From NCBI GenBank assembly GCA_000503875.1, contig CP006913.1:330001-362000 (forward strand): a stretch of DNA of 32,000 nt. Reading direction: 5' to 3'. The position numbers were made by a program, and so were the translations under genes. The first letter of the stretch is position 1; each line of letters opens with the position of its first letter. The DNA comes from Candidatus Saccharimonadota bacterium (lineage in GTDB: Bacteria > Patescibacteriota > Gracilibacteria > Absconditabacterales > Absconditicoccaceae). The notes under the pieces are model-generated. The model saw only the letters and a program-made list of their open reading frames with translations, searched no databases and was not told where the DNA came from. Shown here one piece after another: positions 3,701-29,747 of this stretch.

Positions 3701-3709
3701 ATATTTTCC

Positions 3710-5811: not shown

Positions 5812-6741
5812 TTATTTTTCCTGTGTTTTATCATGCTTTTTTATGTTATATCTTATGATATATTTCTCAAAGATATTAGGAACCTTTATCATGATAGCGG
5901 TCTCTTCGGTATTACCAAAGAGCTCATTGAAAATAGTTCCAAAACATTGCATACCAATAGACAAACGACCATAAAGAGCAATAAGTATAGATGCATTAAA
6001 CCTTTTTGCCAACATACTAAAATCCTCTTCAAAGTTATCTGTAAAAGTAACATCTACAGAAAGGTCACCATATGGACGAATAAGTCCATATTCACCTTTG
6101 GGCTTAATCAAAGAACTATTCTTTGATGGAAAGTATCTATCGAAAAAATGATAAATAGGATCTAAATTACCCAATTGAGGATAAAGGGTAACTTTCCCAA
6201 TAAGAAATGTTACTGGATTGGTCCAAGATATAGATCCTGAATTTTTTTTATTTATCCAGAATCCTAATCCATCAAATAAAGCTTCCAAAGCAAATGACCT
6301 CTGATAATCTGGTTGAACAAATGCCCGTCCGAATTCAGCAGTATAAGGGAGATATTTTTCCACAAACCTTTTGCTTAAATGAAAATAGCTTGTTAATGGA
6401 GAAAATGATTCCTTATTGATTGCCGAATTACGAAGTTTTAACAATGTTTGGATTCGATATCCACCAGCAATTTCATGTTTTTTTGGATCCCAAATAACCA
6501 ATTGTTCGAAATATTTATCGAATTCATCAATATCAGTAGATTTACCAGTTCCTGCCTTTATGTGCCTAAAAGAAATCTCTCTCAGTCGTCCAATTTCCTT
6601 CATAACAGAAGGGCATTGTTCAGGCGTTACAACATAAATTTCAAAACCACCACGATTTGACGTTTTCAGTAGAAATTCTTCTCTTAATTCTGCTCTGAGA
6701 AGATGTCTGGGTTGCGGATCGATAATTTTTTCTTCATTCAT
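5812..6741 (-). CDS. GNAT-superfamily N-acyltransferase of the OlsB / hemolysin-like type (Acetyltransf_5-like), 309 aa
   Basis: Intact ATG..TAA ORF with no TAA, TAG or TGA before its TAA stop. Motifs read: IGRLREISF, HEIAGGYRIQTL, AEFGRAFVQPDYQ. It contains no TGA, and its CGA/CGG codons fall on conserved Arg positions. Confidence 0.75.
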   Translation of the reverse strand: MNEEKIIDPQPRHLLRAELREEFLLKTSNRGGFEIYVVTPEQCPSVMKEIGRLREISFRHIKAGTGKSTDIDEFDKYFEQLVIWDPKKHEIAGGYRIQTLLKLRNSAINKESFSPLTSYFHLSKRFVEKYLPYTAEFGRAFVQPDYQRSFALEALFDGLGFWINKKNSGSISWTNPVTFLIGKVTLYPQLGNLDPIYHFFDRYFPSKNSSLIKPKGEYGLIRPYGDLSVDVTFTDNFEEDFSMLAKRFNASILIALYGRLSIGMQCFGTIFNELFGNTEETAIMIKVPNIFEKYIIRYNIKKHDKTQEK

Positions 6742-6831: not shown

Positions 6832-8538
6832 CTACTTAGAAAAATCTTTATTTAACGTGAGAAGTTGCTGTTTTTGTTCATGAGAAAGGTGTGGATTTTT
6901 GAGTGTTTGCTGGATAAGCGATTTAATTGTTTGTCCAAGGGTTTGTTTAATAAGTTGGATTTTCTTCTCTTCTGTTTTGAGGTCAAATTCTTTTTCCCAT
7001 CGAAGTTGATGCTGATTGAGTGAGGTAATAATTTCCTGGTCTTTGGTTTCAAGCAGAGGAGTGAGTGGATTATTATCTAAAGTGAGAAAAAATTCTTTGA
7101 GAGCCAAAAGCATAGACCAAAGAGTAGGTGTTTCCTGATGTTGTTCAAAAAAATCCTGATAAAACAAAGCCGCAAAAAGAAGCTCTCTAGAAGGCTGATA
7201 AAGAGTGCTTTGTTGTTGCTTTTGTCTGCCATGAGTTTTCCCTTCATTTTGAGAATATTGTTTATATTGAGATCGAGTAAATTCAAAAGGAGAATGAAGA
7301 GTATCGCTTATAAGTTGGATATAATGTTGCTGTAAGGAAATATTATTGATTTTTTGAACAAGACCAAATAAGATATTGAGGATTTTCTGCTTGTCGATAG
7401 GTGATGTGATATCATATTGTGTTCTGATATAGGAAAAGACTGCAGAAAATCCATCTTCTGCTTCCTGCAGAATCTGGGCAAAATGCTCTTTACCCGAAGG
7501 GGAGTTCGCAAGATCATCTGCATCTTTATATGGTTTAGGGAGGATAAGTTGTTTGGGAAAAAGATCTTGCTGATAAGCAAGGGAAAGTGCTCTCTGAGTT
7601 GCATTTTGCCCAGCCGAATCACCGTCAAACAGGAAGTACACGGTATCAGTATATCTTTTCAAAATCTTGATATGTTCTTCGGTTAATGAAGTTCCAGAGG
7701 TTGCCACCGCAACAGGAAATCCCAGTCTATGCAAAGCAATAACATCCATTTGTCATTCTACCACAATAAGATAGCCGAACTGACTAATGTGTTGTTTCGC
7801 CCAATTGAGTCCGTATAAAATTTTTGATTTTTCAAATGCTGGATGCTCAGAACTATTGAGATATTTAGGGGTATCGTTGGGATCTAATACTCTTGCACTA
7901 AATCCAATAATATTGTTCATCGTATCAAAAATAGGAAAGGTAATTCTTTTTTTGAAAAAGGTATAAAAATCTGAATTTTTACTCGGTTTAATCAATGATG
8001 ATTGAATAAGATCATTATCACTAAATCATTTGCCTTTGAGAAAATTCCATAAATCATAGGAACTATCTGGTGCAAATCAAACACCGAAGTGGTGAATAGT
8101 TTCTGTATCTAATTTTCTTTTTTCTTGTAAATAGGTTTTTGCTTCTGATGATTTTTCCAAAGCATCAACAAAAAATTGTTGAGCTAACTTATGTATTCTT
8201 TTGATTTTTTCTTTTTCATCAGCATAATGGTCCAATTTTTTACTATCAACATCATATTTGGTGATATCTATATTAGCATCTTTCGCCAAGAGTTTTATCA
8301 CATCCCAAAAATCTATTTTTTCATATTCTTGGACAAAGGTAAAAACATTTCCTCCTTTACCACATCCAAAACATTTGAAGATCTGTTTCTGTGGAGAAAC
8401 CATAAATGATGCAGTTTTCTCGTTATGAAAAGGGCAGCAACCAGAGTAGTTGCTTCCAGCTCTTTTGAGTGAAACATGCCTTGAAATAACATCTACAATA
8501 TCGACGCTACTCAAAATATCATCAGTAAGTTTGGACAC
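6832..8538 (-). CDS. dnaG: DNA primase
   Basis: Fragments 8077-8538, 7753-7995 and 6832-7749 share a frame and are joined only by TGA. Motifs read: zinc finger CPFHNEKTASF..CFGCG, FGV-[TGA]-FAP, and TOPRIM EG.MDVIALH...FDGDSAG. GTG start, TAG stop. Confidence 0.9.
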
Positions 8539-9053: not shown

Positions 9054-12000
9054 TTAATCTATTTGCAACTCTATTTTTTGGAGAGGTTGTTTTGTTGCTA
9101 TTTTATTCTTTGATCTAATAAATAAACCCAAGGAAATAATTCTTCTAACCTTAGCAATTTCTTCAAGCAATGTCTTGTTTATATAGTGATGTGACCAAAG
9201 TGGTAAGTGAGTTAAATGAATAGATTCTATAGATTGTTTTCCTACAAATTGTTGTAATTGCAAAAATAAATGTTCACTAATAAATGGTGCAAATGAAGCA
9301 CAAAGTTTGATATAATGAAGAAGTACGGTATATAATGTTGCATATGCTGCATATTTATCTCAATCCATTCCTGATGCCCAGAATCTTCTTCTCGATCTTC
9401 TAATATACCAATTATTGAGTTTATCGATAAATCCAAGAGCTGCTTTTGCTCCAAGATCAAGTTGATATCCATCCATTGCTTGTTCTAATTCTTGAGCAGT
9501 ATCATGAAGGGCAGCTAAAATCCATTTATCGAGTTCATTATTGATGGTATAGGTAGGAATAGATATACTTTCTAGATGTTTAAGATGTAATTTTTCTGAT
9601 GTTGCATATGCTGTTTGCCAAAGGGTATCAATATAGGTTTCATGTGAAATTAAGAGAATATTTTTTCCAGAATATTGTTGTTTGATTTCTTCATAAAAAT
9701 TCAAAATTCATTCATTATCACCAAGTCTTTCATCAACAATTAATTTTATGTCTTTTGTTCTATAGGTAGTCATTGTTTTCTTGATACTTTCAGCAGTCTG
9801 TTGTGCTCTTGTCAAGGATGAACAAACAATTACGTCAGCATCTATTCTCAAAATCTGTTCAATGAAATTTGCCTGATGTAAACTAGATTCTCATTGGGTA
9901 GTGAGTTTTCCATCGTCACCAGCATCCGCTTGTGCATGTCTCATTACATAAAGATTTGGCGTTGTATACAAAAAATTATCTACTTTTGCATAGGTTTCAA
10001 AAAATTTATAAGCATTTGTTAATGCACTAGTGAAATCTTTATATACTTGATCAACTCCTTTTTCACTAAATCTCACGGGTTCTGCCTTTACCGCAGGGGA
10101 GGAAAGGAGATACATTCTATATGCATCAGAACCATATTTTTCGAAAAGTGTTTGCGGCTCTGGATAATTTTTGAGTTTCTTGGACATTTTCTTACCATCT
10201 TCGGCAAGTACCATACCATTAATAATCACATTATTGAAAGAATTTTGTTTCATAACAGCATTTCCTACGACATGCATAGTTCTAAACCAACCTCTTGTTT
10301 GGTCAAGTCCTTCGATAATAAAGTCCGCAGGATAAATAAATTGTTTTGCTCCTTTTGTAGAATACGTTTGATTTCCTAAATAATTAGCTTGCCCAAATGG
10401 CATAGCTCCTGATTCAAACCAACAATCCATAACTTCCAAAATTCTTTTATAGACGTTTCCTTCAATAGTAAACCGATAATTGTCTACATATGGTTTGTGT
10501 AAATCTACCTGCTTATTATAAGTATTATCCCAATAATGAATTCCAAATTCTGCATTTTCCAACAAAAGTTCTTTTCTATGTGAATGATAATCTTTTTGAG
10601 CAAAAGAATTTCTACACATTGCCATAGTATCATTGTGGGCAACATAAAGAAGAGTTGCACTTGGGTATTTTGTATTCCAATCAGCAACACAAGTTTTGGT
10701 CCTTTCTAACATCAAAGAAACGGTTTCTCATTCATTGGATATTGGTTGTGTTCGGTCATATCGATTCAACGTGTCGCAGCTACAAAATTTATCTTGAATA
10801 TCAGGAGAAAGATGATCAGTAATACGATAATCAATAAAAATATTATTTCAAAGATCAAAAATAGTCTGATTTTTTTTGTCATGGATATAATCCATTATTT
10901 TTCATTCACTCCATAATTTCTGGTAATGTTCAATTTGTTTGTAATACTTGTTTTTTATTTCTTCTACAAGTTTTTTATCATATAATTCTAGCAATGTTGG
11001 CTCAATAGTTAAAAGAGCTCTCTGCAGCGGAGAAAGAACGATAACAAGATTGTTTTTGTCCGTTGTATATTTTACCAGTTGCTTAGGTAATGCCTGTGCC
11101 TGTTTGTTTCCTTCTTCAGAGAGAACTGGTTTTCCGAAGCTATCGCAGAGTTTCTTTTCGTTGTAATCTGTTTTGCCATGTCTAAGAAAGATATTTCTGG
11201 TAATATTCTTAGATCATGTTAATGTGTTAATATATAATTCATCCAAAGTTCATATAACAATCTTTTCTTCTAAATTATTTTCGTTTTCCCAAACAGGAAT
11301 TGGAGATCATCGATATCTATTTCTTGCAAGGTTCCAATCTGGAGCAGAAGAAAGAACATCAGAAAATCTATTTTTGATAGTTTCTGGTACAAATCCAATG
11401 TGATCTGCATTAGGTACGGTAGTTTTGGTAAGTTCTGGTTCTTTGATAAACCAGCTTGTAAGAGCTTTACAAATCAATGGTGTATCACATCTTCGACAAT
11501 GAGGATAAGAGTGACTATATGATTTTTGAAGAACTAATTTTCCTTCTAATTTAAGTCTAGCGATAATGTCTTTGTTGGCATCATAAACTCTGATTCATTG
11601 ATATTCTGGTACTTGATCCGTAAATTCCGCATAATCATTGAGTGGTAAGAAAAGCCAATTTTTGGCATCTTCTCTTGGCAGAAAAGCAGCGACTGCTTCA
11701 AAATCTTCTATACCAAAACTTGGTGCAATATGCACAATTCCAGTTCCATCTTCTGTGCTTACAAAATCAGCTGCTATAACTTTACAAAATTGATCTCTGT
11801 AATTATCAGGAAGTGCTTTTTTGATATACGGAAGAATTGGTTCATAAGAAAGTCAGATTATATGTTCTCATTTGAAAATATTTACTATCAAATATTCTTC
11901 TGGAGATTTATAATATTGTTTGAGTAGAGCTTGTGCAATAATATAATATTCTTTGCTATTTTTATCAAACACCATAACATATTCTATATGTTTTCCTACA

Positions 12001-13178
12001 GCTAAGAAGCTATTTCCTGGTAAAGTCCATGGAGTAGTAGTCCATGCAAGAACATTAACTGTTGCATCTCAATCTGCTTGTAATGTAGATATTTCTTGTG
12101 CTATTTTGTTATGATATACATACAAATCATAAAATTGATGAGTGATTTCATATTCATCATCTATAACTGTTTCCTCGATTTTTACAGCAAAACCAAGTGA
12201 ATTATCAGATTCTATAATTTCTGCCCAAACGCTATGAGTATGTTTTTCTGGTTCAAGATTTTTTGGTTCACCAGTATATTCTACATCTATGATATTTAGA
12301 TTAAATAACCCATGAGGCATAATTTCTTTGAAACTTCCAAGGTTATTGATTTTTGTTACATCAATACCCATCTCTTCTTTTAATTCTTTGCTGACTGTTT
12401 TTTCTAAGCTATCGCCAGTATTAATTTTTCCACCAGGGAAAACATATTTTTGTGCTTTTTTGTGATATAACATAAAAAATTTATTATCTTTTTTGAGTAC
12501 ACAATCCACAACTTGTATAAACCCATCATGAGTTGATTCATATTCAGAAGAAGGTGTTTTGTTTATGGCAAATTTGATAGTGATCGCAGGATCTTGTTTA
12601 TCTTGATATCCTTCATTTACTTCAGAATTAGAAAGCGATGTTGCACAGCTAGGGCAGTACCATTGTACTTTAAATCATTTATATACAAGATTCTGATCAT
12701 ACATATTTTTAAATGACCAAAGCACGGATTCCATAAAATCAAGGTCCATAGTGTAGTATGCATGATCCATATCTGCCCATCTTCCTATACTATCTACAAA
12801 TATTCTCCATTCATCACTAGTAGAACTTACGTATTTTCTACATTCTTCTATAAATTTTTCCATTCAGATTTTTTGTTCGATATCTTTTTTTCCATCGATT
12901 CCCAAAAATTTTTCAACCGCTTTTTCCACAGGAAGCCCATGACAATCTCGTCATCGTTCTCTGTTTACCTTATATCATTTCATAGTTTTGTATCTCAAAA
13001 TTGTGTCTTTCATAGAAGACGCAAGGCCATGTCAAAAATGAGGTGTTCCTGATGCAAATGGAGGACCATCATACGTACGTGATTGAAACATGTCAGATCT
13101 TTGATCCAATGTTTTTTGAAAAATAGTATTGGTTTTCCAATATTCTGTAATTTTGGTAAGAAGTTCTTTTTGATCCAT
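9054..13178 (-). CDS. ileS: Isoleucyl-tRNA synthetase (type-2-like core), 1374 aa, with three inserted accessory domains
   Basis: All five track fragments share one frame. I translated every gap (9264-9359, 9705-9890, 10716-12068, 12510-12674, 12864-13178) and found 18 TGA and no TAA or TAG. Motifs read: PHF-[TGA]-H (HIGH), [TGA][CGA]DCHGLP (GWD), AWTTTPWTLPGN, GTGIVHIAPSFG, SYPHC[CGA]RC, DWNLARNRY[CGA][TGA]SPIPVW, DQTRGWF, KMSKKL, NNWYIRRSRRRFW. Confidence 0.9.
9540..9971 (-). other. IleRS insertion 3: short histidine-phosphatase (SixA/PGAM-like) domain inside the anticodon-binding region
   Basis: LYVMRHAQADAG..., VCSSLTRAQQTAESI and LLISHETY lie between FFETYAKVDNF and NELDKWILAAL. Confidence 0.6.
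10509..11231 (-). other. IleRS insertion 2: histidine-phosphatase (PGAM-family) domain
   Basis: IFLRHGKTDYN, IVLSPLQRALLT, NEGETVSLMLER and LLYVAHNDTM lie between PIPVWENE..GTLDELY and VDLHKPYVDNY. Confidence 0.65.
12054..12569 (-). other. IleRS insertion 1: Nudix hydrolase domain at the entry to the CP1/editing domain
   Basis: The Nudix box GGKINTGDSLEKTVSKELKEEMGI (about 12363-12431) matches GX5(E/D)X7(R/K)EUXEEXGU. It lies between DPAITIKF and VLAWTTTPW. Confidence 0.7.
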
Positions 13179-13231
13179 AATAAAATATATTTATAGTTTA
13201 AATAGAATAGTCTATGAAGCTAAAATATTTA

Positions 13232-14464
13232 TTACCCAATAAATGGAATTTTAACGCCCCAAAATCTTATTAAATCTTTGAAAATAATGTATATACCAAG
13301 TCCCATCAAAAGGACAAAGAAAAATAAATTAATAAATCATTCTATAGTAAAATATTTTTCAGGTTGTAATTTTCAAATCCATTGAATAATAACACTCAAT
13401 AATCTTCCTCCATCCAGTGCAGGAATAGGTAAAATATTGAATATAGCCAATGCCAAAGAAATAAGGCCAGCAAATGCTAGAAATTGTTTCCATCCACCAG
13501 ATTCTAATAACATATCTCCAAATTTAACAGCTCCAACAGGTCAACTAAGTTTATTTAATGCTCAGTTAATTTTTGTTTTATCAAAAGAAAAAAGATTTTT
13601 TCCCAGACTACCAAGTGCATGGAAAGTAAGCTGAGTTTGTGCTTTAATTTCTTTTAGAGCAATACCCATTGCAGGGACAAAAGGAAATTTAATAAGCGTT
13701 CATTCTAAATCAGCAAGACTTTTTTCATCAAATCCAGAATACATAAAGGCAATTCCCAAAAGACAACTTTCTGATTCACAAATTCATTTTACTTCACGAG
13801 AAACGCCGTTTCTTGTATAATAAAGAGAAATATCTCATCCAATATTATCTTTGAGTACTTGTTCTATATTCCAAGCATTGATGCTAACAGTATTTATACT
13901 TTTTATAATATCACCAGATTGGATTCCTAGTTGTTCTCCAAGCCCACCTGAAACGACTTCAAATACTTTTACAGGAACATTTTCTATAGTTTTTTTATTT
14001 GCTTCACTAATAAATCCTTTTTGATAAAGAAAACTTTTTGTAGGCATTAAATAACTTTCAATAGGCGTAGTTGTCATATTCTCTGAAACTAGAGAAATAG
14101 GCTTTGTACCAGCAGTAAAAACAAAAGTAAAAATAATCCATGCTGCCAAAAAATTTGCTGCAACTCATGCCACAAGGATAAGAAATTTCCCACCTATGTT
14201 GGCTTTGATAAAACTATCTTTTGCATTAAATTCTTCTTCGTGTTTTGGATCTTCACCTTTTAGTCTAACAAATCATCATAAAGGAATCAGATTTAATGTA
14301 TATTCTGTCCCCGTTTTATCTGTTCGTAATTTAAATATCTTTGGAGGAATACCAATTCCAAATTCCAATACTTTTACTCCGCTTTTTTTTGCAGCAATAA
14401 AATGTCAAAGTTCATGGATCAATACCAATCCCATAAACATCAAAATTCCTATAATCAATCCCAT
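13232..14464 (-). CDS. rseP: RseP-like site-2 (M50) zinc metalloprotease with a PDZ domain, 410 aa
   Basis: ATG at 14464. Motifs read: HEL-[TGA]-H (TGA at 14405-14407), a PDZ segment (GIQSGDIIKSIN) and NILPIPALDGGR. I translated the whole ORF by hand and the only internal stop triplets are TGA. TAA stop at 13232-13234. Confidence 0.85.
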
Positions 14465-14657
14465 ATCAAAATGTTTAAAAATAAAACGTTTCAAGAATAC
14501 AAAAAAGCCTGTTCAAATCAATAGATATATTGAATATATTATATCATAAAAAAGATAAAAAACAATAGATATACCTAGATATAAGCACTTTATTTTGGAA
14601 GAACAACTATTTGTGGTTATAATAGAGAAAGCAAATTTAATTATATAAAATATAGCT

Positions 14658-17600
14658 ATGAAAAAACATTGATTATTATTGTTCGTTCTTAGTGCAATTA
14701 GTTTGATAGCATGATTCAGTCATATACAAGCACAACAAACAACTAATTGAGAAATCAGATTAGAAATCAATGCATGAAATTCTTGTTGTATCTATGGTAC
14801 ATGAATCACATTTTGAAATAAAGATGTAAGCTTTTGAATAACTGAATTTTCTGGTGATTTTCTTAATTATTTTGGGGATAATGCTCGAAGCTGTAAAGAC
14901 ATGCAAGGAACGGAAACAGGATGGGCAATGTCCATTAGTATGTCTGGTTCATTAGTAAATGAAAAATGAAACATAATCCCTGCTCAAAATGTAAAAATAA
15001 GCTTTAGTCCAACAGTACAAAAAGCAGGAAATTGTATTCCGTACATAGGATGATGAAATGATATTCCCTTAAGTTGAACAATTCCTTTAGTTCAAAAAAA
15101 TGGAAACATTCCCGAAAATTATGGAAAAATCTGTGTATTAGAAACAACAGGAGTGAATTTGAAAGTGATAACAAATACTGGTCAGTCACCATGAAATTAC
15201 GTAGGAACGTTAGTGATAGATCTTCCAAATTTTATTTCCAATCAATGTGAAATTGGAGATTTACTAGAAGGAACATTACTTGATGCTGAAACAGATGGAG
15301 TTTCGTATCTCTCTTATCCATCATGAATATTTGGAGTAACGCAAAGCTGAGGAAAATTTAATTATAGAGAGGGTGATATTGTTTCGTTTAAACTTGCAAA
15401 TATAGAACTTGGAAGTGTAGCCCCTAGAAACGATAAAAAGGTTTTTGTGCCAGAATTATTAAATCTCCCAAGAACTGCATTTAATGAAGAAAGATCTATT
15501 AAAATATCTCAACTTCTTCAGTCGCTAGATAATGATAATAATCCTGATAATGGAATTATTATAACGCCAGAAGTCATCAACGCAATTACACAAACAGGAA
15601 GTATTGAAAATATTAATATAAATACGGTAGTTACAAGTGTAGGAAAAACTGTAAGAAATACAGTAGATGTTCAAGAACATCTTGGTGGAACATTGAAAGA
15701 ACAATTTATGATAGGAGTATCATTAGTTAAAGATATTAAAATATGAACAAGTTGATCTGATCTTACATGAGTAATGATTTTTGATAATAAAATGTATTTT
15801 GTCTCTGATGATGGAATTCATGGAAAAGAACTTTGGGTAAGTGATGGAACAAATTTATGAACGTATATGCTCAAAGATATCTGGCCAGGAACAATGGGTT
15901 CTTTTCCAGATAAGTTTTTATTGGGAAGTGGTCAATTATTTTTTGTTGCAACTGATGGAGAATATGGAAGAGAATTGCGAAGTACAGATGGAACTGAAGA
16001 AGGAACTCAAATGATTATAGATATTGTCATAAATGGAAATACATCAAGTCCTGGTAATTTTACGATTATGAATAATAAAGTGTATTTTGCAGCAACAGAT
16101 GGAATAAAATGACAAGAATTATGGACTAGTGATGGAACAATAAATGGAACATATATGATTAAAGATATCTATTCTGGTGGAAATGGTTCATCACCTTCAT
16201 TTTTAGTGGAAATGCAATGAAAATTATATTTTTCGGCTTCTAGTCTTTCGGGATCACAGCAATTATGGGTCAGCGATGGAACAGAAAATTGAACTTATGT
16301 AGTTAAGCCATGAGTAAATATATGAGTTCAAGTTCTTACTGTTGCTGAAAATAAAATATTTTTTCTATGAAACATCTCTCCGTATGGACAAGAGCTTTGG
16401 GTAAGCGATGGAACAGAAAGTTGAACATATATGGTCAAAGATATTTATCCTTGAACAAATAATTCATCTATAAGTTATATAAATCCCCAATTAGATAAAA
16501 TATATTTTCAGGCAAATAACGGAATAAATTGATCAGAATTGCGAATAAGTGATGGAACAGAAAGTTGAACATATATGGTAAAAGATATTTATCTTGGTAC
16601 GTGAACATCTTATATTTATAATAGCATGATTTTATGATCAGGTAAGGTGTATTTTAAAGCAACAGATGGTGTTCATGGATATGAACCATGGGTAAGTGAT
16701 GGAACAGAAAGTTGAACGTATATGCCAACAGATTTCATGCCACATTGAAGAAATTGAAGTCCGAGTAACTTAAATTATTGCAATAATAAATTATCTATGA
16801 GAGCTACAGAATGAAGTAGTATTAGATTTTTAGCATATGATTTAGTTAACGAAACAAAAGTAAATTTATGAGCTACAAGTATTGCAGCAGCTTGTTTAAA
16901 TACAACTTTATTTTTATCATTATATAATTGATCATATGGAGTAGAATTATACAAGACAGATTGAACTGTTTGAGGAACAGTTATGGTTAAAGATATAAAT
17001 CCAGGGACGAATAACTGAGATCCCAATAATTTAACAGTAGTTTGAGATAAACTTTATTTTGTAGCAAACAGTTCTTGATACTGAGTAGAATTACGAGTAA
17101 GTGATGGAACAAATATAGGAACATATATGGTCAAAGATATTTATTCTGGAACAACAAGTAGTAGTCCATATAATTTTATAGGATTTTGAGATAAAATTTA
17201 TTTTTTAGCAACTACTTCATGATATGGATATGAATTGCGAGTAAGTGATGGAACTAATGGAGGAACATATATGATGAAAGATATCTATTCTGGAAATACT
17301 ACTTCATCAATAAGTAATCTTATAGTATATTCAGGAAAACTTTATTTTAGTGCAAATAATTGAATTAATTGAGCTGAGTTACGAGTAAGTGATGGAACAG
17401 AAACATGAACATATATGGTAAAAGATATTTATTCTGGTAATAATAATTCTAGTCCAAGCAACTTTATTATTTACTTAGATAAATTATATTTTAGAGCAGA
17501 TAATAATACAAATTGAGTAGAATTATGGACAAGTGATGGAACAGAAAGCGGTACGTATATGGTAAAAGATATTTATTCTGGAAGTAGTGATTCATATCCT

Positions 17601-19562
17601 GCTAATTTAACTATTTTTTGAGATAAAATTTATTTTTGAGCACAAAGTTCATGAAGTTGATATGATTTATGGACAAGTAATGGTACAGAAACTGGAACAT
17701 ACATAGTTTATAATAGTTTGTCGCCAAATTATATAACGGTATTTTGAAATAAATTGTATTTTTCAGCCTATAATTCATTATATTGACAAGAACTATGGAC
17801 TAGTGATGGAACAGAAATTTGAACGTATATGGTCAAAGATATTTATACGTGAACAAATAATTCAGTACCATGATCATTTACATCAGCATGAGATGAATTA
17901 TTTTTCTCTGCTAATGATTGAATACATGGACAAGAATTACGAGTTACAGATGGAACAGAGTGATGAACACATTTATTTGATGATATTAGTCCTGATGGAA
18001 ATTATTTAGACTTTACCTTACTTGGAATACAAGAAGATAAAATATATTTAAGAGCAAGTTTTTTGACACAAACATGAATGGAATTATATATTTCACAAGA
18101 TGAATTTCAGTCCATGTCTTTGGTTAAAGATATATATGTATGACGAAACGCTAATTCAAGTCCAAGTAATTTTATAATTAATTGAGGTAAAGTATATTTT
18201 ACTGCATATGCTGCTGGATATTGAATAGAATTGTGGGAAACAGATTGAACAGAAAATGGAACTCAATTAGTCAAAGATATAAACCCATGAGCAGCAAGTT
18301 CAAATCCATATACTTTGATACCAAAATGAGATAATATTTTCTTTAAGGCAACGACATCTACTAACTGACAGGAACTTCGAATGACAGATTGAACAGAATG
18401 ATGAACCAAATTAGTCAAAGATATATATCCGGGTACAACAAGTTCAAGCATTGATTATCTTGTTGCAAATGATGATGCTCTTTATTTTTTTAGGGCAGAC
18501 AACGGCCTTGATTGATTAGAACTGTGGACTAGTGATGGAACAACTAATGGGACAACTCTAGTTAAAGATATATATATAGATTGATTAACATCTACTCCAA
18601 CACCAGAAGTTTTTATAAATAATAAATTATATTTTTCAGCTGCCGATAATAGATGACGTGAATTACGAACAAGTGATGGAACAAGTTGAGGTACTTCCTT
18701 ATTGAAAGATATAAATACAAGTGCTGGTTTAAATAGTAATCCATATAATTTTACAAAGTTATGAAATATTACATATTTTGCAGCTTGAGATGGAATAAAT
18801 TGAACAGAGTTACGAAGAAGTGATGGTACAGTTTGATGAACGTATATAGTTAAAGATATTTATGTCTGAGCAAATTATTCATCAACACCAAATAATTTAA
18901 CAGTTATGGATGATAAAATATATTTTGCAGCAAATAGCTCTTGATATTGAGTAGAATTATGGATTACCGACGGAACAAATGGATGAACACAAATAATAAA
19001 AGATATTTATTCATGAGCTAGTTCTTCATCACCTGTTAATTTAAGGGTTGCATGAGATAAAATATATTTTGCTGCAAATAATAATTATGGACAAGAATTG
19101 CGAGTAAGTGATGGAACAGCAAATGGTACTCAAATGATAAAAGATATCTACTCAGGAGCTAATAGTTCAAATCCACAAATACTTACAGTTATGGATGATA
19201 AAGTATATTTTAGAGCCAATAATTATTATAGTTGATCGGAGCTCCGAGTAACAGATGGAACCATATCTGGAACTGTTTTAGTAAAAGATATAGATCCAAG
19301 ACTCTATTACTCTTCTACTCCAAGTATTTTAACTTCAATCGGAAATAAACTTTATTTCTCAGCAATCAATCAACTCAATGGAAACGAGCTTCGAGTAACA
19401 GATGGTATAATTAATGGAACGGGAACCTATCTTGTAAAAGATCTTTGGAGTGGTTCACAAAATTCAAATCCTTCAAATATTGTTTCGTTAAATAATATTC
19501 TTTATTTCACTGCTCAAGATCAACTCAATTGATTAGAACTTCGAAGATTTGTAGAAGATTAA
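14658..19562 (+). CDS. Secreted giant ELWxxDGT-repeat protein, 1634 aa (signal peptide, ~370-aa N-terminal domain, ~25 repeats)
   Basis: ATG at 14658 and signal-like MKKHGLLLFVLSAISLIAGFSHIQAQ. Frame 3 is held through to TAA 19560-19562. I checked most of the length codon by codon and it contains dozens of TGA and no TAA or TAG. The track shows only 2 short pieces of it. Confidence 0.85.
15780..19559 (+). repeat. About 25 tandem coding repeats of ~50-55 aa. Consensus: ..(K)LYF.A.d...G.EL(W)vSDGT..GT.mVKDIy.G..sS.P.n.
   Basis: The periodic SDGT/TDGT and VKDIY strings were read directly from the sequence. Confidence 0.9.
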
Positions 19563-19586
19563 TAAGAAATTAATAAATAAAAAAAT

Positions 19587-19615
19587 AATCCCAGTGGAAT
19601 ATCTGGGATTTTTTA
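19587..19615 (+). terminator. Intrinsic terminator of the ELW-repeat gene
   Basis: Stem aatcccag/ctgggatt (19587-19594 / 19603-19610) followed by ttttt. Confidence 0.75.
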
Positions 19616-19681
19616 TTGCTATTTTTTCGAAAAAACTTAGAGTAATCCAAAACATAATATTTTATACCTTTTGACGAAACA

Positions 19682-20491
19682 ATGTACGATTCACATACAC
19701 ATCTCAATAGCGAAGTTATGTATCCAGAGCGACAACATTATATGGATTTTTTTGTTCAAGCGTGAGGAAAATGATTGGTAAATTCTGGAGCCAGTGAATT
19801 TTATAATGAAAAGGGGATCGAAATAGCAAAAGAATCTTTACAAAAATATCCAAATCTTCGAGTTAAAGCTACGCTTTGACGGCATCCTTTGGAATGTGTA
19901 GAAAATATTATTACCCAAGAAAATTATCTTCAGAAAGTACAAGACCTCAAACAGCAATACCTCGCTAACAAAGAACATATTGTAGCCATAGGGGAAATTT
20001 GAATAGATGTTCATTTTCCGAATGGGCAAGAGACTTTGGGGCTTCAGAAAGAACTCTTTGCACTTCAGTGCGACCTTGCCCAAGAACTCAATCTTCCCAT
20101 TGTAGTCCATTCGAGAGATGAATTCAATCAAACAATAGATATTTTACAACATTATAAAAATCAGATTATTTATTTTCATTGTTGGGGATACGGACCAGAA
20201 GAATATCGCAGATTAAACGATATGTTTCCAAATTTATTTGTTGGATTTTGTGGAAATGTGACCTATAAAAATGCACAAGCACTGAGAGATACATTGGCTA
20301 TCGTAGATAGAAATCAACTTGTCCTAGAAACAGATGCGCCCTACCTTGCTCCGCAGGTAGTCAGATGAGAAACTAATCATCCTGCATATGTTGTATATAT
20401 CTATGATTTTGTTTCGCAGCAGCTTCAAATCTCCAGAAATATACTTGATAAACAAATAGAGAAGAATATATTTACATTATATAAAAAATAA
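19682..20491 (+). CDS. tatD: TatD-family metal-dependent hydrolase
   Basis: Motifs read: YDSHTHL, L-[TGA]-[CGG]-HP, GEI-[TGA]-ID, VVHSRD, LETDAPYL, VR-[TGA]-ETNHP. Frame 2. TAA stop at 20489-20491. Confidence 0.85.
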
Positions 20492-23593: not shown

Positions 23594-25327
23594 CTAATCT
23601 TCATTTTGTTTCTCTTCATCTTTTCTGTTTTTGAGATATCCTGTCAAATATATCATAATTTCTCTTTTGGTGTTTCTTGTTTTTATATCATTTAATACCC
23701 AATCAAAAGCTTGTTTCAAAAGAATTCAAATTAATTTTGATGGTTGAATATGGAATTGTTTCATAAGCATATCTCCATCCACAGCAAGTTCTTTGATAGT
23801 AAATTGACCTTCTTCATCATTTATTTGCTTAAGTAATTTTCTCAAAACATTCACTTCTTGAAGATCATTATTATTTTGGAGAGGATTGTATTGACCGCGT
23901 CTATCAGCAATAGTAATATCCAAAATATTTTCAACTTGATGATAGCCAGCTTCTGACAAAAATTTTCTAAGTTTTTTCTTGCACTGATCATCGCTTTCTC
24001 CATCAAGAATTTCTTCTGGTTTATGATGATTGGCAACGTATCGAGCAATTTGATCAATTTCTTTGCTAGAAAATCCAAGAGAAATAAAGTCTTTTTTAAC
24101 CAATTCTGGTCATCATTTTCTATGATTCAATGGTCAAGAAAGAATACCTCTAATTTCTTCTTTACTTAAATTATCTTTGTAAGCTGAAAATTGAGCAACT
24201 TTCCCTACATCATGATAGAGCATTGCCAATCTTACCAGATAATTATTATTTATTTTTTGAAGTTCATAAAGGGTAAGAAGTGTGTGGGTATATACGTCAA
24301 AAGGGTGAAATCTTACCGGTTGATGAATGTATTTTGTTGCATAAACAGCAGGAAAGATAATTTGTAATAAATGAGATTCATCAAGTAAAGCAACAAATCC
24401 AAAAGGATCTCCTTTACTAAATATTTTGATAATTTCATCTTTAATTCTTTCTTTGGCAACATGTTCGAGCAAATGATGATTGGTTTTTAATGCATTTCGT
24501 GTTGCTTTGTCAAAGTCAAACAATGTTGTATCTGATTTTTTTTGTTTAAGTTGATGATTGAGAACATTTACAAATCTGAGTCCTCTTAATAATCTAAGTG
24601 CATCTTCTTGGAATCTATGATCAGGGTCACCGACAGCACGAAGTTTCTTTTCGAAAAGATCTTGGATTCCCTTATTGGGATCTATAATAAAATACATAAA
24701 TTCTGATTCATTTCCCAATTTATATTTTTCAATAACAGAAGCTAATTTTTCTTTGTGATATATACCATCTTCAAAGAGGGTAGTGATAATATTAGTATCT
24801 TGAATTATTAATAAATTATGACTAGAGATACCAATTATTCAATTGTTCTTGAGTCATTTTAGTAATTCTTTTTCTTCAATTGCTCAGGAATTTTTGTCCT
24901 CCGATTTTTTATGGGTACTATCAGCAAAAAAATAGAGTGAATTGATGGTGAAATCTCTCCTTTTTGCATCAAGAAGAATATCATTACTTCGATGTATTTC
25001 TTCAGGATGACGAAAATCTTCGTAGCCTCATTCGGTACGAAGAGGGGTTATTTCATATTGAATATTGGTTTTACCTTTTTTGATAAAGGTAATAGTCCCA
25101 AATTTTTCTGTCATAAAATGAGAAAGTCCTATTTTGTTGCTATGATTATAGATATGTATTGGATCTCAACCAAGAGTAACATCAATATCGTTAGGACGTT
25201 GTTCTATTGTTAATAATAGATTTCTTACACATCAACCAACAAGAAAAACAGCAGTTTTGCTCTTAAGTCTTTTTTGGATAAAAGCATGCTGCTTAGCCAA
25301 ATATAATATATTGGGAAAAGAAAACAT
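23594..25327 (-). CDS. cca: CCA-adding enzyme / tRNA nucleotidyltransferase with an HD domain, 577 aa
   Basis: Motifs read: LVG-[TGA]-CVRNLLL, DIDV, RRDFTINSLY, HD region YHDVGK. The track ORF ends at TGA 23726-23728, but the reading frame continues for 44 more codons (GILLKQAFDWVLND...) to TAG 23594-23596. Confidence 0.85.
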
Positions 25328-28382: not shown

Positions 28383-29222
28383 ATGGATAAAAATCTAGAA
28401 GATCCGGGATATATCTCGTTAACTGAAGGAATGCGTTTGGCTGGTTACGTGCCTGAGCATAATCCTATTGACTATCAAGAGGTTTGGGAATTTTTCGAAC
28501 GAATAAGTAAAATAAACTTAGAAGTAAGAGACCCAAAACTTCAAAAATTATTTACAATTATTGATCAACAAAAGGAACAAGAACAATCTTTCGATGAACA
28601 AGAATACCTTAAAATATTGCTTTCTGTGGTTATGGATTTAGATTTAGAAAACCATGAAACAATAATTAAAGAAATAGCAGTGTTTCACGAAAGAGATGTA
28701 GATGAAGATGAGAAAGATATGTTTGTAAATATGCTGATAAGTAGTGTTGAAGCGAAAAAAGAACATTATCTTTCTAAACTTAACGTTGTTCCAGTTACAG
28801 AAGCATCAAAACCTTCTGTTGAAGAAACAGAAGTTGTTAAGCCAATCAAAAGAAAAAGATTAAAAATTGTTCAAGAACAGGTATTTATATTACATAATAA
28901 AAAAGAGACACCCACTCCTGTTACAAAAAACAATCGTAATAGGAAAAGTTCTGTTTCTTCAAGACAAAAAGTTATCTCTGTTTTGGAGAAAAGTCAAAGT
29001 TTCTTAATATATCAGGAAGCATTCCCTTTACCAAAGGGGATAAAACGTATTCGTATCAAAGAAAATTTTGATAAAATACTTCAATTTATTGAGGAATATA
29101 TAACAAAGAAAAATCTTCCCGTACGAATAATTGTTGAAAAGGACAGAGCAAAAGTTCTTTTCAAAGATATTAAAAAGACTAGAATGCGGCACAAAACTCA
29201 AATTCGAGTGAAAGCTGCATAA
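28383..29222 (+). CDS. Hypothetical 279-aa protein with an acidic N-terminal half and a strongly basic C-terminal half (TGA-free cassette)
   Basis: Intact ATG..TAA ORF with its own promoter and terminator. I recognise no family. Confidence 0.6.
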   Translation: MDKNLEDPGYISLTEGMRLAGYVPEHNPIDYQEVWEFFERISKINLEVRDPKLQKLFTIIDQQKEQEQSFDEQEYLKILLSVVMDLDLENHETIIKEIAVFHERDVDEDEKDMFVNMLISSVEAKKEHYLSKLNVVPVTEASKPSVEETEVVKPIKRKRLKIVQEQVFILHNKKETPTPVTKNNRNRKSSVSSRQKVISVLEKSQSFLIYQEAFPLPKGIKRIRIKENFDKILQFIEEYITKKNLPVRIIVEKDRAKVLFKDIKKTRMRHKTQIRVKAA

Positions 29223-29330: not shown

Positions 29331-29747
29331 ATGGGAGAAAACGAAATTAAACAGAAAATGGAAAGCAACACTTCCTTTCTGAATGAAACAAAAGCTCTTG
29401 CAATTAGTACCGAAGATGCAAAAGAGATTCATGAGTTAATGAATCTCGAAGACCTTATTCATGGTATTAATATCCGAAGAGATTTAAAAAACAAAACAAG
29501 GTTTGGTACGTTGTCACCTTCGTTAATCAAAAACTCTTTTTTAACTGAAGATGATTTTATGTATCTATTTGAAGTATTACAAGGTAGATACGAAATGTCT
29601 TCATGTGCATACAAAGACTATGTTAAGGCACAAATAAATGAACTTTGTGTCGAAGCTATCAAGAGAGAATTTATTAGCGTAAGGGCAATGGTATTTGCCA
29701 AACACCCCGCTATTAGAAATTTAAAGGCGGTTAGGGAATTAATGTAA
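29331..29747 (+). CDS. Hypothetical 138-aa protein (TGA-free cassette)
   Basis: Intact ATG..TAA ORF. I recognise no family. Confidence 0.55.
   Translation: MGENEIKQKMESNTSFLNETKALAISTEDAKEIHELMNLEDLIHGINIRRDLKNKTRFGTLSPSLIKNSFLTEDDFMYLFEVLQGRYEMSSCAYKDYVKAQINELCVEAIKREFISVRAMVFAKHPAIRNLKAVRELM

What the first reader, a model, noticed from the sequence alone, without database searches (positions are those of the whole stretch)
9054..19882. CGA (and probably CGG) is read as tryptophan in the native genes: a sense-codon reassignment on top of UGA=Gly
CGA occupies invariant Trp positions.

In IleRS:
- SYPHC-[CGA]-RC (11493-11495 on the plus strand), matching HCWRC
- [TGA][CGA]DCHGLP (12948-12953), matching GWDCHGLP
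- NRY-[CGA]-[TGA]-SPIPVW (11307-11312), matching RYWGtPiP

In the ELWxxDGT-repeat protein, the family-defining W column is TGG in 11 repeats, CGA in 13 repeats (for example 15978-15980, 17094-17096, 17940-17942) and Tyr in 2. It is never AGA or CGT.

Genuinely conserved arginines in the same genes are AGA, AGG or CGT (RRSRRRFW, DQTRGWF, GRTHQIR, RRDFTIN).

In TatD, L-[TGA]-[CGG]-HP (19877-19882) lines up with the GWHP motif I remember from Firmicute YabD-type TatD proteins, which suggests CGG=Trp as well.

To my recollection, a CGA/CGG-to-Trp change in a clade of Absconditabacterales was predicted computationally in the Codetta screen of Shulgina and Eddy (2021). This window would be direct locus-level evidence of that code.
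Basis: partly seen in the sequence, partly recalled or inferred. Interest (0 to 1): 0.8.

Follow-up and report, generated by a model that had tools for sequence, protein, structure and literature searches.

The report
Arginine codons CGA/CGG read as tryptophan
This stretch comes from a tiny uncultured SR1 (Absconditabacteria) bacterium whose ordinary genes use CGA and CGG for tryptophan as well as UGA for glycine, a code change already predicted in print for this very genome, but a few conserved genes beside them still use these codons as arginine, which nobody seems to have explained.

Summary
In UGA-containing genes, CGA and CGG sit where tryptophan belongs and never where arginine belongs.

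Across 33 SR1 IleRS orthologues compared with 32 standard-code outgroups, CGA fell in conserved columns as W 115, Y 2, L 1 and R 0. CGG gave W 15 and R 1.

The window is from SR1 bacterium RAAC1_SR1_1. Shulgina & Eddy (2021) list this genome as UGA=Gly, CGA=Trp and CGG='?'. The main claim is therefore already known, though still unverified by experiment.

New here:
- CGG is resolved as Trp-like in ordinary genes (3 of 3 in the window).
- The window also holds a second gene class: a GNAT acyltransferase, PhoH2 and two unknown genes. These have no UGA, use CGA/CGG at invariant arginines, and have A-rich leaders.
- This class is conserved in SR1 relatives. Where dN/dS could be measured (GNAT, 0.09) it is under purifying selection.
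- This mixture plausibly explains Codetta's '?' for CGG.

Why two coding dialects coexist is unexplained. The decoding tRNAs could not be reached with these tools.

The parts
9054..13178 (-). Isoleucyl-tRNA synthetase gene, 1374 aa, type 2 (eukaryote-like), with 18 in-frame TGA, 6 CGA and 1 CGG. It carries three inserted domains.
   Evidence: PDB IleRS, E=1e-179, four matched blocks. Pfam hits on the orthologue: tRNA-synt_1, NUDIX, His_Phos_1, Anticodon_1.
12948..12950 (-). CGA at the W of GWDCHG in IleRS.
   Evidence: Outgroups are W in 32 of 32. SR1 relatives have TGG 17, CGA 11, CGG 1. Yeast IleRS has W.
12954..12956 (-). CGA at an aromatic column (W/F) two residues upstream in IleRS.
   Evidence: Outgroups are W 20, F 10, N 2. 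SR1 relatives have CGA 23, TGG 6.
11493..11495 (-). CGA at the W of HCWR in IleRS.
   Evidence: Yeast IleRS has CWR. SR1 relatives have CGA 22, TGG 9.
11310..11312 (-). CGA at the W of RYWG in IleRS.
   Evidence: Outgroups are W 30, F 2. SR1 relatives have CGA 27, TGG 4.
10473..10475 (-). CGG in an SR1-specific tryptophan column of IleRS. This is the best CGG=Trp case in the window.
   Evidence: SR1 relatives have CGA 18-19 and TGG 13-14, and nothing else.
14658..19562 (+). ELWxxDGT-repeat surface protein gene, 1634 aa, with 89 TGA and 15 CGA. 13 of the CGA lie in the W column of 26 repeats.
19682..20491 (+). TatD-family hydrolase gene with CGA at 19730-19732 and 19859-19861 and CGG at 19880-19882.
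   Evidence: Pfam TatD_DNase hit. In relatives these codons swap with TGG, CGA, CGG, TTT, TTA and ATT, never with an Arg codon. S. aureus TatD has W at the CGG site.
23594..25327 (-). CCA-adding enzyme gene with CGA at 24989-24991, 24497-24499 and 24041-24043.
   Evidence: In orthologues each of these swaps only with TGG, CGA or CGG.
14324..14326 (-). CGA in the RseP-type site-2 protease gene (13232-14464).
   Evidence: Orthologues have CGA 4, TGG 3, TGA 1.
7000..7002 (-). CGA in the DnaG primase gene (6832-8403). A second CGA lies at 7273-7275.
   Evidence: At 7000-7002 orthologues have CGA 5, TGG 1. At 7273-7275 they have CGA 4, TAT 1, TTA 1.
34..36 (+). CGG in the S-layer-type surface protein gene (1-2391, partial). 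A CGA at 1798-1800 sits at the HW position of an SLH-like repeat.
   Evidence: The orthologue has TGG at the CGG site. The next SLH repeat in the same protein has TGG (NAHWSAQYV against INH[CGA]SKPYV).
5812..6741 (-). Counter-example gene 1: a GNAT N-acyltransferase (PF13444) with 0 TGA. CGA 6586-6588, CGA 6454-6456 and CGG 6325-6327 lie at invariant arginines.
   Evidence: R in 114 of 114 distant homologues. These codons swap with AGA, AGG and CGT in SR1 orthologues. dN/dS is 0.09. Leader A content is 0.80.
26823..28181 (+). Counter-example gene 2: PhoH2 (PIN plus PhoH ATPase) with 0 TGA in 29 Gly codons. CGA 27261-27263, CGG 27906-27908 and CGA 28143-28145 lie at invariant arginines.
   Evidence: It is TGA-free in 6 SR1 lineages.
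28383..29222 (+). Counter-example gene 3: an unknown 279-aa protein with 0 TGA, 3 CGA and 1 CGG.
   Evidence: CGA 29205-29207 pairs with AGA and CGG 29187-29189 pairs with AAA in L082/L083. The window's CGT pairs with their CGG at two columns. The leader is A-rich.
29331..29747 (+). Probable member of the same class: an unknown 138-aa protein with 0 TGA and 1 CGA.
   Evidence: Leader A content is 0.73. Synteny with L082/L083 is conserved. The codon evidence is weak (one CGA, partner AGT).

Best explanation
The window is part of the genome of candidate division SR1 bacterium RAAC1_SR1_1 (order Absconditabacterales). In its ordinary genes three codons have changed meaning: UGA is glycine, and CGA and CGG are tryptophan.

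Arginine is written with AGA, AGG, CGU and CGC. Tryptophan is written with UGG, CGA and, rarely, CGG.

What the codon-position evidence shows directly: the codon meanings in ordinary genes.

What is inferred from the literature: the mechanism. The lineage has no tRNA-Arg(ACG), so CGA and CGG depend on tRNA(UCG) and tRNA(CCG). These have lost the arginine identity element A20, carry G73, and are presumed to be charged with tryptophan. Because U34 reads both A and G, the two codons changed together. Low G+C had made both codons rare beforehand.

This is the reassignment that Codetta predicted in 2021, including for this genome.
For: Source of the window:
- The window's GNAT and PhoH2 proteins are identical to database proteins on a 1,177,760-bp contig, named P148_SR1C... 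/ candidate division SR1.
- The closest loci are Absconditabacteria MAGs with the same gene order.

Codon positions in conserved IleRS columns, 33 SR1 sequences:
- CGA: W 115, Y 2, L 1, R 0.
- CGG: W 15, R 1.
- AGA: R 443.
- TGG: W 330.
- TGA: G 188.

Window codons:
- 39 CGA/CGG lie in TGA-containing genes.
- 17 have TGG as the main partner in orthologues and none has an Arg codon as partner.
- 13 more are in the ELW W column.

Window versus L084 in native genes: CGR<->TGG exchanges 5, CGR<->Arg-codon exchanges 0 in 54 Arg sites.

Literature:
- this genome is listed as UGA=Gly, CGA=Trp, CGG='?', with tRNA ACG 0, GCG 1, UCG 1, CCG 1, CCA 1.
- Later work treats the reassignment as accepted.
Against: - No tRNA with anticodon UCG, CCG or CCA lies in the window or in about 45 related loci. 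Charging identity was therefore not examined here.
- No proteomic confirmation exists in the literature held.
- Eleven to twelve CGA/CGG codons in the window's TGA-free genes sit at arginine positions, six of them at invariant arginines. The rule does not describe every gene.
Confidence: 0.9

Rival explanations
1. Two dialects are maintained by selection. A conserved minority of SR1 genes is kept free of UGA and uses CGA/CGG as arginine, because the products matter in a setting where the standard code applies. Members are PhoH2, the PF13444 acyltransferase and neighbouring unknown genes, plus ThyA and FabF in relatives. Possible settings are translation in the host or prey cell, or in an SR1 cell whose decoding is temporarily switched, for instance by a standard-code phage that brings tRNA-Arg or by imported host cytoplasm. 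This complements the main explanation rather than replacing it.
For: No UGA:
- GNAT has 0 TGA in 6 lineages and PhoH2 in 6 lineages. Neighbouring genes use TGA for 10-65% of Gly, and TGA/GGN status differs at 25 of 63 Gly sites between the window and L001.

CGA/CGG at invariant Arg:
- GNAT, 114 of 114 homologues.
- PhoH2, 100-101 of 101.
- ThyA at R21, R127 and R166.

Exchange with Arg codons:
- In PhoH2 the column partners of CGR are CGT 27, CGC 12, AGA 9, AGG 3 and TGG 0.
- Over the same interval, GNAT has 5 CGR<->Arg exchanges in 13 Arg sites against 0 in 54 for native genes (Fisher by hand, p=1.3e-4).

Selection and residence:
- GNAT dN/dS is 0.09 and dS is 1.2, like its neighbours.
- GC3 is close to that of native genes.
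- The SR1 copies share derived residues.
- Gene order is conserved.

An independent third trait: 30-nt leaders average 0.70 A against 0.33 in native genes (Mann-Whitney p=8e-6).
Against: - No mechanism is known or shown for decoding some mRNAs differently, or for expressing them elsewhere.
- Promoters look sigma-70-like and not Bacteroidetes-like.
- ThyA and FabF do not fit a toxin or defence role.
- No TGA stop codons are used, so these genes are code-neutral for UGA rather than strictly standard.
- The GNAT gene is frameshifted in L085 and absent in L003.
- PhoH2 is far more diverged than its flanks, which also fits replacement from outside.
Confidence: 0.3
2. The TGA-free genes are repeatedly imported or overwritten from standard-code donors, such as Bacteroidota, their phages, or code-neutral phages of SR1. 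They are simply not yet adapted. In the SR1 cell their CGA/CGG are mistranslated as Trp, and the copies are crippled or dispensable.
For: - The nearest non-SR1 homologues of GNAT and PhoH2 are Bacteroidales, Marinilabiliales and similar taxa, at 40-50% identity.
- Arg codon use is CGT-rich.
- Trees disagree with the flanks. GNAT is 40% identical between the window and L001 while IleRS is 84%. PhoH2 is 53% between L091 and L092 while PNPase is 95%. The drop in identity starts about 100 nt into the coding sequence, with weaker 5'-end similarity (about 68%), runs to the stop codon, and recovers partly to 75-81% in the 3' part.
- GNAT is lost or broken in some relatives.
- Code-11-compatible, TGA-free phages of these bacteria are described.
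Against: - A search of 5.8 billion proteins found no donor closer than 40-50%. Every closer homologue that was checked lies in an SR1 chromosome at the same locus.
- The SR1 copies share derived residues.
- GNAT has co-diverged with its neighbours (equal dS) under dN/dS 0.09. New CGA codons arose at invariant Arg within that interval.
- Base composition is already like the host genome.
- There is no close relative in IMG/VR, and nothing above 47% identity in GenBank phages.
Confidence: 0.3
3. CGA/CGG are decoded ambiguously, as a mixture of Trp and Arg, throughout the cell. This could arise from one tRNA charged by both synthetases or from competing tRNA(UCG) and tRNA(CCG). It would resemble CUG in some yeasts.
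For: - The anticodons UCG and CCG still carry the main ArgRS determinants C35 and G36 (general knowledge of tRNA identity).
- Codetta gave '?' for CGG in this genome and 'Arg' in its sister genome UBA5124.
- Both kinds of site exist in one genome.
Against: - The two kinds of site are cleanly separated by gene and are not mixed within genes. In conserved IleRS columns, 0 of 118 CGA codons fall on Arg. In PhoH2 and GNAT, no CGR codon has a TGG partner.
- IleRS has CGA at three catalytic-core tryptophans and 7 CGR codons in all, so a substantial Arg fraction would leave little correct protein (inference).
- In some SR1 genomes CGA outnumbers TGG.
Confidence: 0.08
4. CGA and CGG are still arginine everywhere. 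The tryptophan positions merely tolerate arginine, or the pattern is chance or sequencing error.
For: None beyond the standard-code default and the Arg-type sites in the TGA-free genes.
Against: - 115 CGA codons fall on W columns and none on R in IleRS.
- 13 of 15 CGA in the ELW gene lie in one repeat column shared with TGG (p=1e-23).
- The same pattern appears in about 33 independently assembled genomes.
Confidence: 0.01

Closest known systems
Absconditabacteria code: UGA=Gly plus CGA/CGG=Trp (Shulgina & Eddy 2021, eLife, PMC8629427)
   Same: It is the same organism group, and this very genome (GCA_000503875.1) is in their table. The codons, the new meaning, the low G+C and the rarity of CGN codons all agree.
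   Different: Their call for CGG in this genome was '?', and 'Arg' in the sister genome. Here CGG is Trp-like in UGA-containing genes and Arg-like in UGA-free genes, which plausibly accounts for the undecided call. They do not describe gene-class exceptions.
CGG=Trp in Anaerococcus and in an RFN20/Onthovivens clade of Bacillota (same paper)
   Same: An arginine CGN codon is reassigned to tryptophan in low-G+C bacteria.
   Different: Only CGG changes there. tRNA(UCG) is absent and CGA stays Arg through tRNA(ICG). UGA is not reassigned.
Code-11-compatible, TGA-free phages predicted to infect Absconditabacteria and Gracilibacteria (Liu et al. 2023, mBio, PMC10746230)
   Same: Coding sequences associated with code-25 bacteria avoid in-frame TGA altogether and end in other stop codons. 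The window's TGA-free genes do the same.
   Different: The genes here are chromosomal, sit between housekeeping genes in conserved order, and have no close phage relatives. The phage paper does not consider CGA/CGG, which would be misread in an SR1 host.
Stop-codon-recoded phages whose early genes fit the host code and late genes the recoded one (preprint 10.1101/2021.08.26.457843, listed; content recalled from memory)
   Same: One genome holds two sets of genes written for two decoding states.
   Different: That case involves stop codons only, in a phage. The switch is thought to be made by phage-encoded suppressor tRNAs. Here it is a sense codon pair plus UGA in a cellular genome, and no switch is known.
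Ambiguous CUG decoding in Candida, Ascoidea and Saccharomycopsis yeasts (described in PMC8629427)
   Same: A sense codon carries two meanings in one organism, and Codetta returns '?'.
   Different: There the ambiguity is stochastic at every CUG. Here the two meanings are partitioned by gene.

Membership tests
Absconditabacterales genetic code (UGA=Gly, CGA/CGG=Trp) | In-frame UGA at conserved glycine positions, with genes open only under table 25. | tested here: met
   TGA falls on G in 188 of 209 conserved IleRS columns. There are 18 TGA in IleRS and 89 in the ELW gene.
Absconditabacterales genetic code (UGA=Gly, CGA/CGG=Trp) | CGA at conserved tryptophan positions and not at arginine positions. 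| tested here: met
   W 115, R 0. Window codons are covered. Exception: 9 CGA in TGA-free genes, mostly Arg-like.
Absconditabacterales genetic code (UGA=Gly, CGA/CGG=Trp) | CGG at conserved tryptophan positions. | tested here: met
   Across the clade, W 15 and R 1. In the window, 3 of 3 CGG in native genes are Trp-like, while 3 of 3 in TGA-free genes are Arg-like.
Absconditabacterales genetic code (UGA=Gly, CGA/CGG=Trp) | tRNA(UCG) and/or tRNA(CCG) with tryptophan identity (G73, no A20). | not testable with these tools
   No such tRNA lies in the window or in the related loci fetched. Presence, but not sequence, is given for this genome.
Absconditabacterales genetic code (UGA=Gly, CGA/CGG=Trp) | No tRNA-Arg(ACG); CGU and CGC read by tRNA(GCG). 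| not testable with these tools
   The whole genome is not available here. The published table gives ACG 0 and GCG 1.
Absconditabacterales genetic code (UGA=Gly, CGA/CGG=Trp) | Low G+C, Arg mainly AGA, and CGA/CGG rare. | tested here: met
   G+C is 0.29-0.37 along the window. In native genes, among Arg codons other than CGA/CGG, AGA is 82%.
Absconditabacterales genetic code (UGA=Gly, CGA/CGG=Trp) | Organism belongs to Absconditabacterales (SR1). | tested here: met
   The nearest loci are SR1/Absconditabacteria MAGs with the same gene order. Identical proteins are named SR1 RAAC1.
ELWxxDGT repeat proteins (NCBIfam TIGR04534) | Tandem repeats of about 47 residues matching the model, whose name gives W at the third motif position. 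| tested here: met
   24 matched stretches, 1278 bits against a cutoff of 65. Standard-code members were not aligned column by column.
Code-11-compatible TGA-free phage genes (Liu et al. 2023) | No in-frame TGA. | tested here: met
   GNAT has 0 of 20 Gly codons as TGA and PhoH2 0 of 29. The same holds in all orthologues.
Code-11-compatible TGA-free phage genes (Liu et al. 2023) | Several different stop codons close together at gene ends. | tested here: inconclusive
   GNAT ends TAA-TAT-TAA...TAA-TAG. The others show single TAA or TAG, as do native genes.
Code-11-compatible TGA-free phage genes (Liu et al. 2023) | Carried on a phage genome. | tested here: not met
   The genes are chromosomal and lie between dnaG and rluD, or between the CCA-enzyme and L9/Obg genes, in many SR1 genomes. 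There is no close viral relative.

The most novel reading that the evidence does not exclude
SR1 bacteria keep, by selection, a small conserved set of chromosomal genes written in the standard code. These genes have no UGA, use CGA/CGG as Arg, and have distinctive A-rich leaders. They include PhoH2, a PF13444 acyltransferase, ThyA, FabF and unknown genes, and they sit next to housekeeping genes written in the reassigned code. That would mean one cellular genome serves two decoding settings. Possibilities include messages translated in the host or prey cell, or genes that only yield active protein when decoding is switched during phage attack or feeding.
Probability: 0.25. Interest if true: 0.9.

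Novelty: already known. Interest (0 to 1): 0.45.

Why it matters
The main claim adds locus-level and clade-level support to a published but experimentally unverified sense-codon reassignment.

It has practical consequences:
- Public annotations of these genomes under table 25 put Arg where Trp belongs, including in catalytic motifs of IleRS.
- Codetta-type calls for the rare CGG codon are blurred by a second class of genes.

If the second class is maintained by selection, several things follow:
- It gives a direct handle on how code changes interact with gene transfer, phage infection and host dependence in episymbiotic bacteria.
- It would be a rare case of two coding dialects in one cellular genome.
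- It bears on the claim that host translation machinery is no barrier to standard-code phages of these bacteria. Their CGA/CGG arginines would be misread as tryptophan.

Tried and rejected
- Looked for tRNA(UCG), tRNA(CCG) or tRNA(CCA) in the window, in 32 SR1 loci around IleRS, in 11 further SR1 loci, and in 4-6 kb beyond each window end. None was found. The supplement of the 2026 NAR tRNA paper held nothing for this clade.
- The single metagenome-contig scan failed with a tool error and was counted as used.
- Tested a phage origin for PhoH2. There is no relative in IMG/VR by peptide patterns, and GenBank phages reach at most 47% identity.
- Looked for a Bacteroidetes-type promoter (TAnnTTTG) upstream of the TGA-free genes. 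It is absent, and the promoters look sigma-70-like.
- Tested a shared upstream motif, AAACCANNTTGAA. It has two exact sites, before PhoH2 and before the next gene. With one mismatch it is not above chance, and it is absent before the GNAT gene.
- Looked for a neighbouring-base rule that would separate Trp-type from Arg-type CGA/CGG. The distributions differ only modestly, and every base occurs in both classes.
- Tested high expression as the reason for avoiding TGA. Ribosomal protein L9 and a cold-shock gene do use TGA.
- Tested decay of the GNAT gene as the reason for CGA at Arg sites. dN/dS is 0.09, and there is no other lesion in the window copy.
- The all-against-all clustering of raw ORFs was contaminated by out-of-frame and antisense ORFs. 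It was used only as a pointer.

Full report
**What is in the window**

The window has 29-37% G+C. Read with UGA as a stop it falls apart. Read with UGA as glycine it gives about 20 long genes, which Pfam and NCBIfam identify as follows:
- an S-layer-type surface protein (1-2391)
- RluD (4972-5664)
- DnaG (6832-8403)
- IleRS (9054-13178)
- an RseP-type protease (13232-14464)
- an ELWxxDGT-repeat protein (14658-19562)
- TatD (19682-20491)
- a TraG/VirD4-like ATPase (21050-23506)
- the CCA-adding enzyme (23594-25327)
- ribosomal protein L9
- RNase HII

A cluster of nine tRNA genes lies at 2475-3781 and tRNA-Lys(CTT) at 25812-25885. None of them reads CGN or UGG.

**Checking the observation**

I replaced CGA and CGG by X so as not to bias the alignment, then compared IleRS with solved structures.
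- Yeast cytoplasmic IleRS aligns W to the CGA codons at 12948-12950 (GWD[C/T]HG), 11493-11495 (CWR) and 11310-11312 (RYWG).
- It aligns F to a fourth CGA at 12954-12956.

In the ELW gene, 13 of the 15 CGA codons lie in the W column of the 26 repeats. The rest of that column is 11 TGG and 2 TAC. The chance probability is 1e-23. The repeats match TIGR04534 in 24 stretches.

In TatD, the CGG at 19880-19882 aligns to W in the S. aureus enzyme and to V in the T. maritima enzyme.

**Bringing in relatives**

A scan of one genome per species returned two useful sets:
- 32 Absconditabacteria/SR1 loci encoding the same unusually long IleRS (47-84% identity, all full of in-frame TGA)
- about 45 standard-code IleRS loci

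I aligned 33 SR1 sequences with 32 outgroups and tallied which codon SR1 uses in columns at least 80% conserved in the outgroups:

| Codon | Conserved outgroup residue |
|---|---|
| CGA | W 115, Y 2, L 1, R 0 |
| CGG | W 15, R 1 |
| AGA | R 443 |
| TGG | W 330 |
| TGA | G 188 |

29 of the 32 relatives examined use CGA or CGG at conserved tryptophans, including the oral SR1 HOT-345; three use only TGG there.

The window's one IleRS CGG (10473-10475) lies in a column that is variable in outgroups. In SR1 relatives that column is CGA x18-19 and TGG x13-14 and nothing else. This is a cleaner CGG=Trp case than the TatD one.

In the other UGA-containing genes of the window, CGA and CGG exchange with TGG, CGA, CGG, TAT, TTT and TTA in orthologues. 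They never exchange with an arginine codon.

In total, 39 of the window's 51 CGA/CGG codons are in UGA-containing genes.
- 17 have TGG as their main orthologous partner.
- None has an Arg codon as partner.
- 13 of the remainder are the ELW W-column codons.

**Identity of the organism and what is already published**

Two window proteins are identical to database entries on a 1,177,760-bp contig. These are named P148_SR1C... / candidate division SR1. An identical stretch occurs in a Rifle sediment metagenome. This is SR1 bacterium RAAC1_SR1_1.

Shulgina & Eddy (2021) predicted CGA and CGG to Trp for Absconditabacteria, on top of UGA=Gly. Their Figure 4 source data lists this genome (GCA_000503875.1) as follows:
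- UGA=Gly, CGA=Trp, CGG='?'
- tRNA(ACG) 0, tRNA(GCG) 1, tRNA(UCG) 1, tRNA(CCG) 1, tRNA(CCA) 1
- the sister genome UBA5124 is listed as CGG='Arg'

Later papers re-detect or take the reassignment as given, and note that it has not been verified experimentally. The finding is therefore correct and already known. The window adds independent, gene-by-gene support.

**Mechanism**

What the sequence shows is the meaning of the codons in ordinary genes. The mechanism is inferred from the 2021 paper:
- There is no inosine-type tRNA-Arg.
- CGA and CGG depend on tRNA(UCG) and tRNA(CCG), which carry G73 and lack A20.
- U34 wobble ties the two codons together.
- Low G+C had made them rare before the change.

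I could not examine the tRNAs. None lies in the window, in about 45 related loci, or in the few kilobases beyond the window ends that could be fetched.

Four adjacent or nearby genes contain no TGA:
- a PF13444 GNAT acyltransferase (5812-6741)
- PhoH2 (26823-28181)
- two unknown genes (28383-29222 and 29331-29747)

Their CGA/CGG codons behave as arginine.
- The three in GNAT fall in columns that are R in 114 of 114 distant homologues.
- The three in PhoH2 fall in columns that are R in 100-101 of 101 homologues, including the RGR motif seen in PDB 3b85.
- In the 279-aa gene, CGA pairs with AGA, CGG pairs with AAA, and the window's CGT pairs with CGG in orthologues.

CGG in the window is therefore split: three Trp-type codons and three Arg-type codons. 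This would explain the '?' and 'Arg' calls in the published table (inference).

**These genes are not simple fresh imports**

The GNAT gene sits between dnaG and rluD in the window and in L001, L026, L005, L084 and L085. PhoH2 follows the CCA-enzyme gene in the window and in L080, L082, L090, L091 and L092.

TGA-free status:
- All copies are TGA-free, for example PhoH2 at 0 of 26 to 0 of 33 Gly codons.
- Neighbouring genes use TGA for 10-65% of Gly.
- TGA/GGN status differs at 25 of 63 conserved Gly sites between the window and its closest relative, so turnover is fast.

Signs of long residence and selection:
- The SR1 copies share derived residues and keep 71-90% of the families' invariant columns.
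- Their GC3 is like that of native genes.
- Between the window and L084, the GNAT gene has dN/dS 0.09 and dS 1.2, the same as its neighbours.

Over that same interval:

| Exchange | GNAT | Native genes |
|---|---|---|
| CGR <-> AGA/AGG/CGT | 5 of 13 Arg sites | 0 of 54 Arg sites |
| CGR <-> TGG | 0 | 5 |
| TGA <-> GGN | 0 | 19 |

By hand, Fisher's exact test on the Arg-site exchanges gives p=1.3e-4.

Across six PhoH2 lineages, the column partners of CGA/CGG are CGT 27, CGC 12, AGA 9, AGG 3 and TGG 0.

The class extends beyond the window.
- ThyA in L008 and L031 has CGA/CGG at catalytic R21, R127 and R166 and no TGA.
- FabF in L009 has CGA at a site I judge to be Arg from the recalled E. coli FabF sequence (not aligned with a tool), and no TGA.
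- About 16 of 403 ORFs in the SR1 loci are significantly TGA-free.

A third, independent trait marks the class. The 30 nt before the start codon average 70% A, against 33% A (T-rich) for native genes, with essentially no overlap (p=8e-6). The same holds for GNAT and ThyA orthologues and other TGA-free genes.

**What complicates the picture**

- These genes are much more diverged than their flanks. GNAT is 40% identical between the window and L001, where IleRS is 84%.
- PhoH2 is 53% identical between L091 and L092, where PNPase is 95% and the CCA enzyme 83%.
- The DNA identity between L091 and L092 drops from 80-90% to about 50% between the first ~100 nt of the gene and its stop codon, with partial recovery to 75-81% in the 3' part. 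The terminator just after the stop is nearly identical.
- That pattern fits allele replacement by recombination, or very fast evolution of the coding part alone.
- The GNAT gene is frameshifted in L085 and missing in L003.
- The nearest non-SR1 homologues are Bacteroidota at 40-50% identity.
- No close phage relative exists in IMG/VR or GenBank phages.
- The promoters look sigma-70-like, with no Bacteroidetes -7 motif.
- No simple neighbouring-base rule separates the two kinds of CGA/CGG.
- The closest precedent is the set of TGA-free, code-11-compatible phages predicted for these bacteria. Those are phages, however, and their authors did not consider CGA/CGG.
- I found no description of chromosomal genes of this kind in the literature held.

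**Verdict**

- It is a rediscovery of a published prediction for this very genome, so on its own it is of modest interest.
- Two things go beyond the publication. CGG is Trp-like in ordinary genes. A conserved minority of genes follows standard-code usage, which probably blurs genome-wide inference for rare codons.
- Whether that minority is maintained for a standard-code decoding setting or is repeatedly overwritten from outside is open. I rate the two readings about equally.
- Proteomics and a split Codetta run would settle both this question and the main claim.

Noticed in passing
window 5812-6741, 26823-28181, 28383-29222, 29331-29747; also L001, L005, L026, L080, L082, L084, L090-L092: A class of TGA-free genes uses CGA/CGG at invariant arginines and has A-rich leaders (about 70% A in the 30 nt before the start codon). 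It is conserved at the same loci across SR1 genomes. Where dN/dS could be measured (GNAT) it is under purifying selection.
   Followed up: yes
L091:7980-9500 against L092:7980-9500: Two close relatives (PNPase 95% identical) have PhoH2 genes only 53% identical. The promoter, the first ~100 nt and the terminator hairpin are conserved, but the body of the gene is not. This suggests allele replacement or hyper-divergence confined to the coding part.
   Followed up: partly
window 9054-13178 (IleRS residues about 206-371, 661-891 and 1062-1211): IleRS carries three large insertions absent from solved IleRS structures. They comprise a NUDIX domain and histidine-phosphatase (His_Phos_1) domains: Pfam reports His_Phos_1, while the presence of two copies is my reading of RHG-type motifs in two of the insertions. 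All 32 SR1 relatives have the same 1375-1400-aa architecture.
   Followed up: partly
window 14658-19562: The 1634-aa ELWxxDGT-repeat gene has no counterpart in any related locus. In relatives the RseP and TatD genes are adjacent. Yet the gene is fully written in the SR1 dialect, with TGA as 45% of its Gly codons.
   Followed up: partly
L006:8892-9869, L008:1506-2504, L031:3345-4184: Thymidylate synthase genes lie 1-2 kb upstream of IleRS in three SR1 genomes. They are TGA-free, CGT-rich and very different from one another. L008 and L031 have CGA/CGG at catalytic arginines, and L006 has none.
   Followed up: partly
window 2475-3781: A cluster of nine tRNA genes (Val, Glu, Asp, Thr, Asn, Leu, Gln, Met, Gln) has a ribosomal protein S20 gene embedded between tRNA-Thr and tRNA-Asn. 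The same cluster is conserved in L001, L026 and L085.
   Followed up: no
window 3921-4553 (minus strand): A Gln/Pro-rich protein ends in nine tandem copies of PVAPIQQ. Its orthologues in relatives are only 36-47% identical.
   Followed up: no
window 25812-25885; L080:9595-9670; L082:5800-5875; L091/L092 about 7450-7900: tRNA-Lys(CTT) sits just upstream of PhoH2 in the window, L080 and L082, and tRNA-like sequence lies upstream of PhoH2 in L091 and L092. The tRNA-bearing segment appears inverted between L091 and L092 (the last two were read from the alignment only, not scanned for tRNAs).
   Followed up: no
window 30486-31310: The RNase HII gene has the highest G+C in the window (0.415, GC3 0.38). 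It has an internal insertion relative to the Pfam model (two matched stretches) and a Lys/Pro-rich C-terminal tail.
   Followed up: no
L080:12268-13782: A reverse-transcriptase (RVT_1) gene lies two genes downstream of PhoH2 in one SR1 genome.
   Followed up: no
L088 (GCA_003543185.1) and L087: An independent public re-assembly of the same organism was annotated with the standard code. Native genes are chopped into fragments at TGA, while PhoH2 and the two unknown genes after it are called full-length. One of its contigs starts 940 bp before PhoH2.
   Followed up: no
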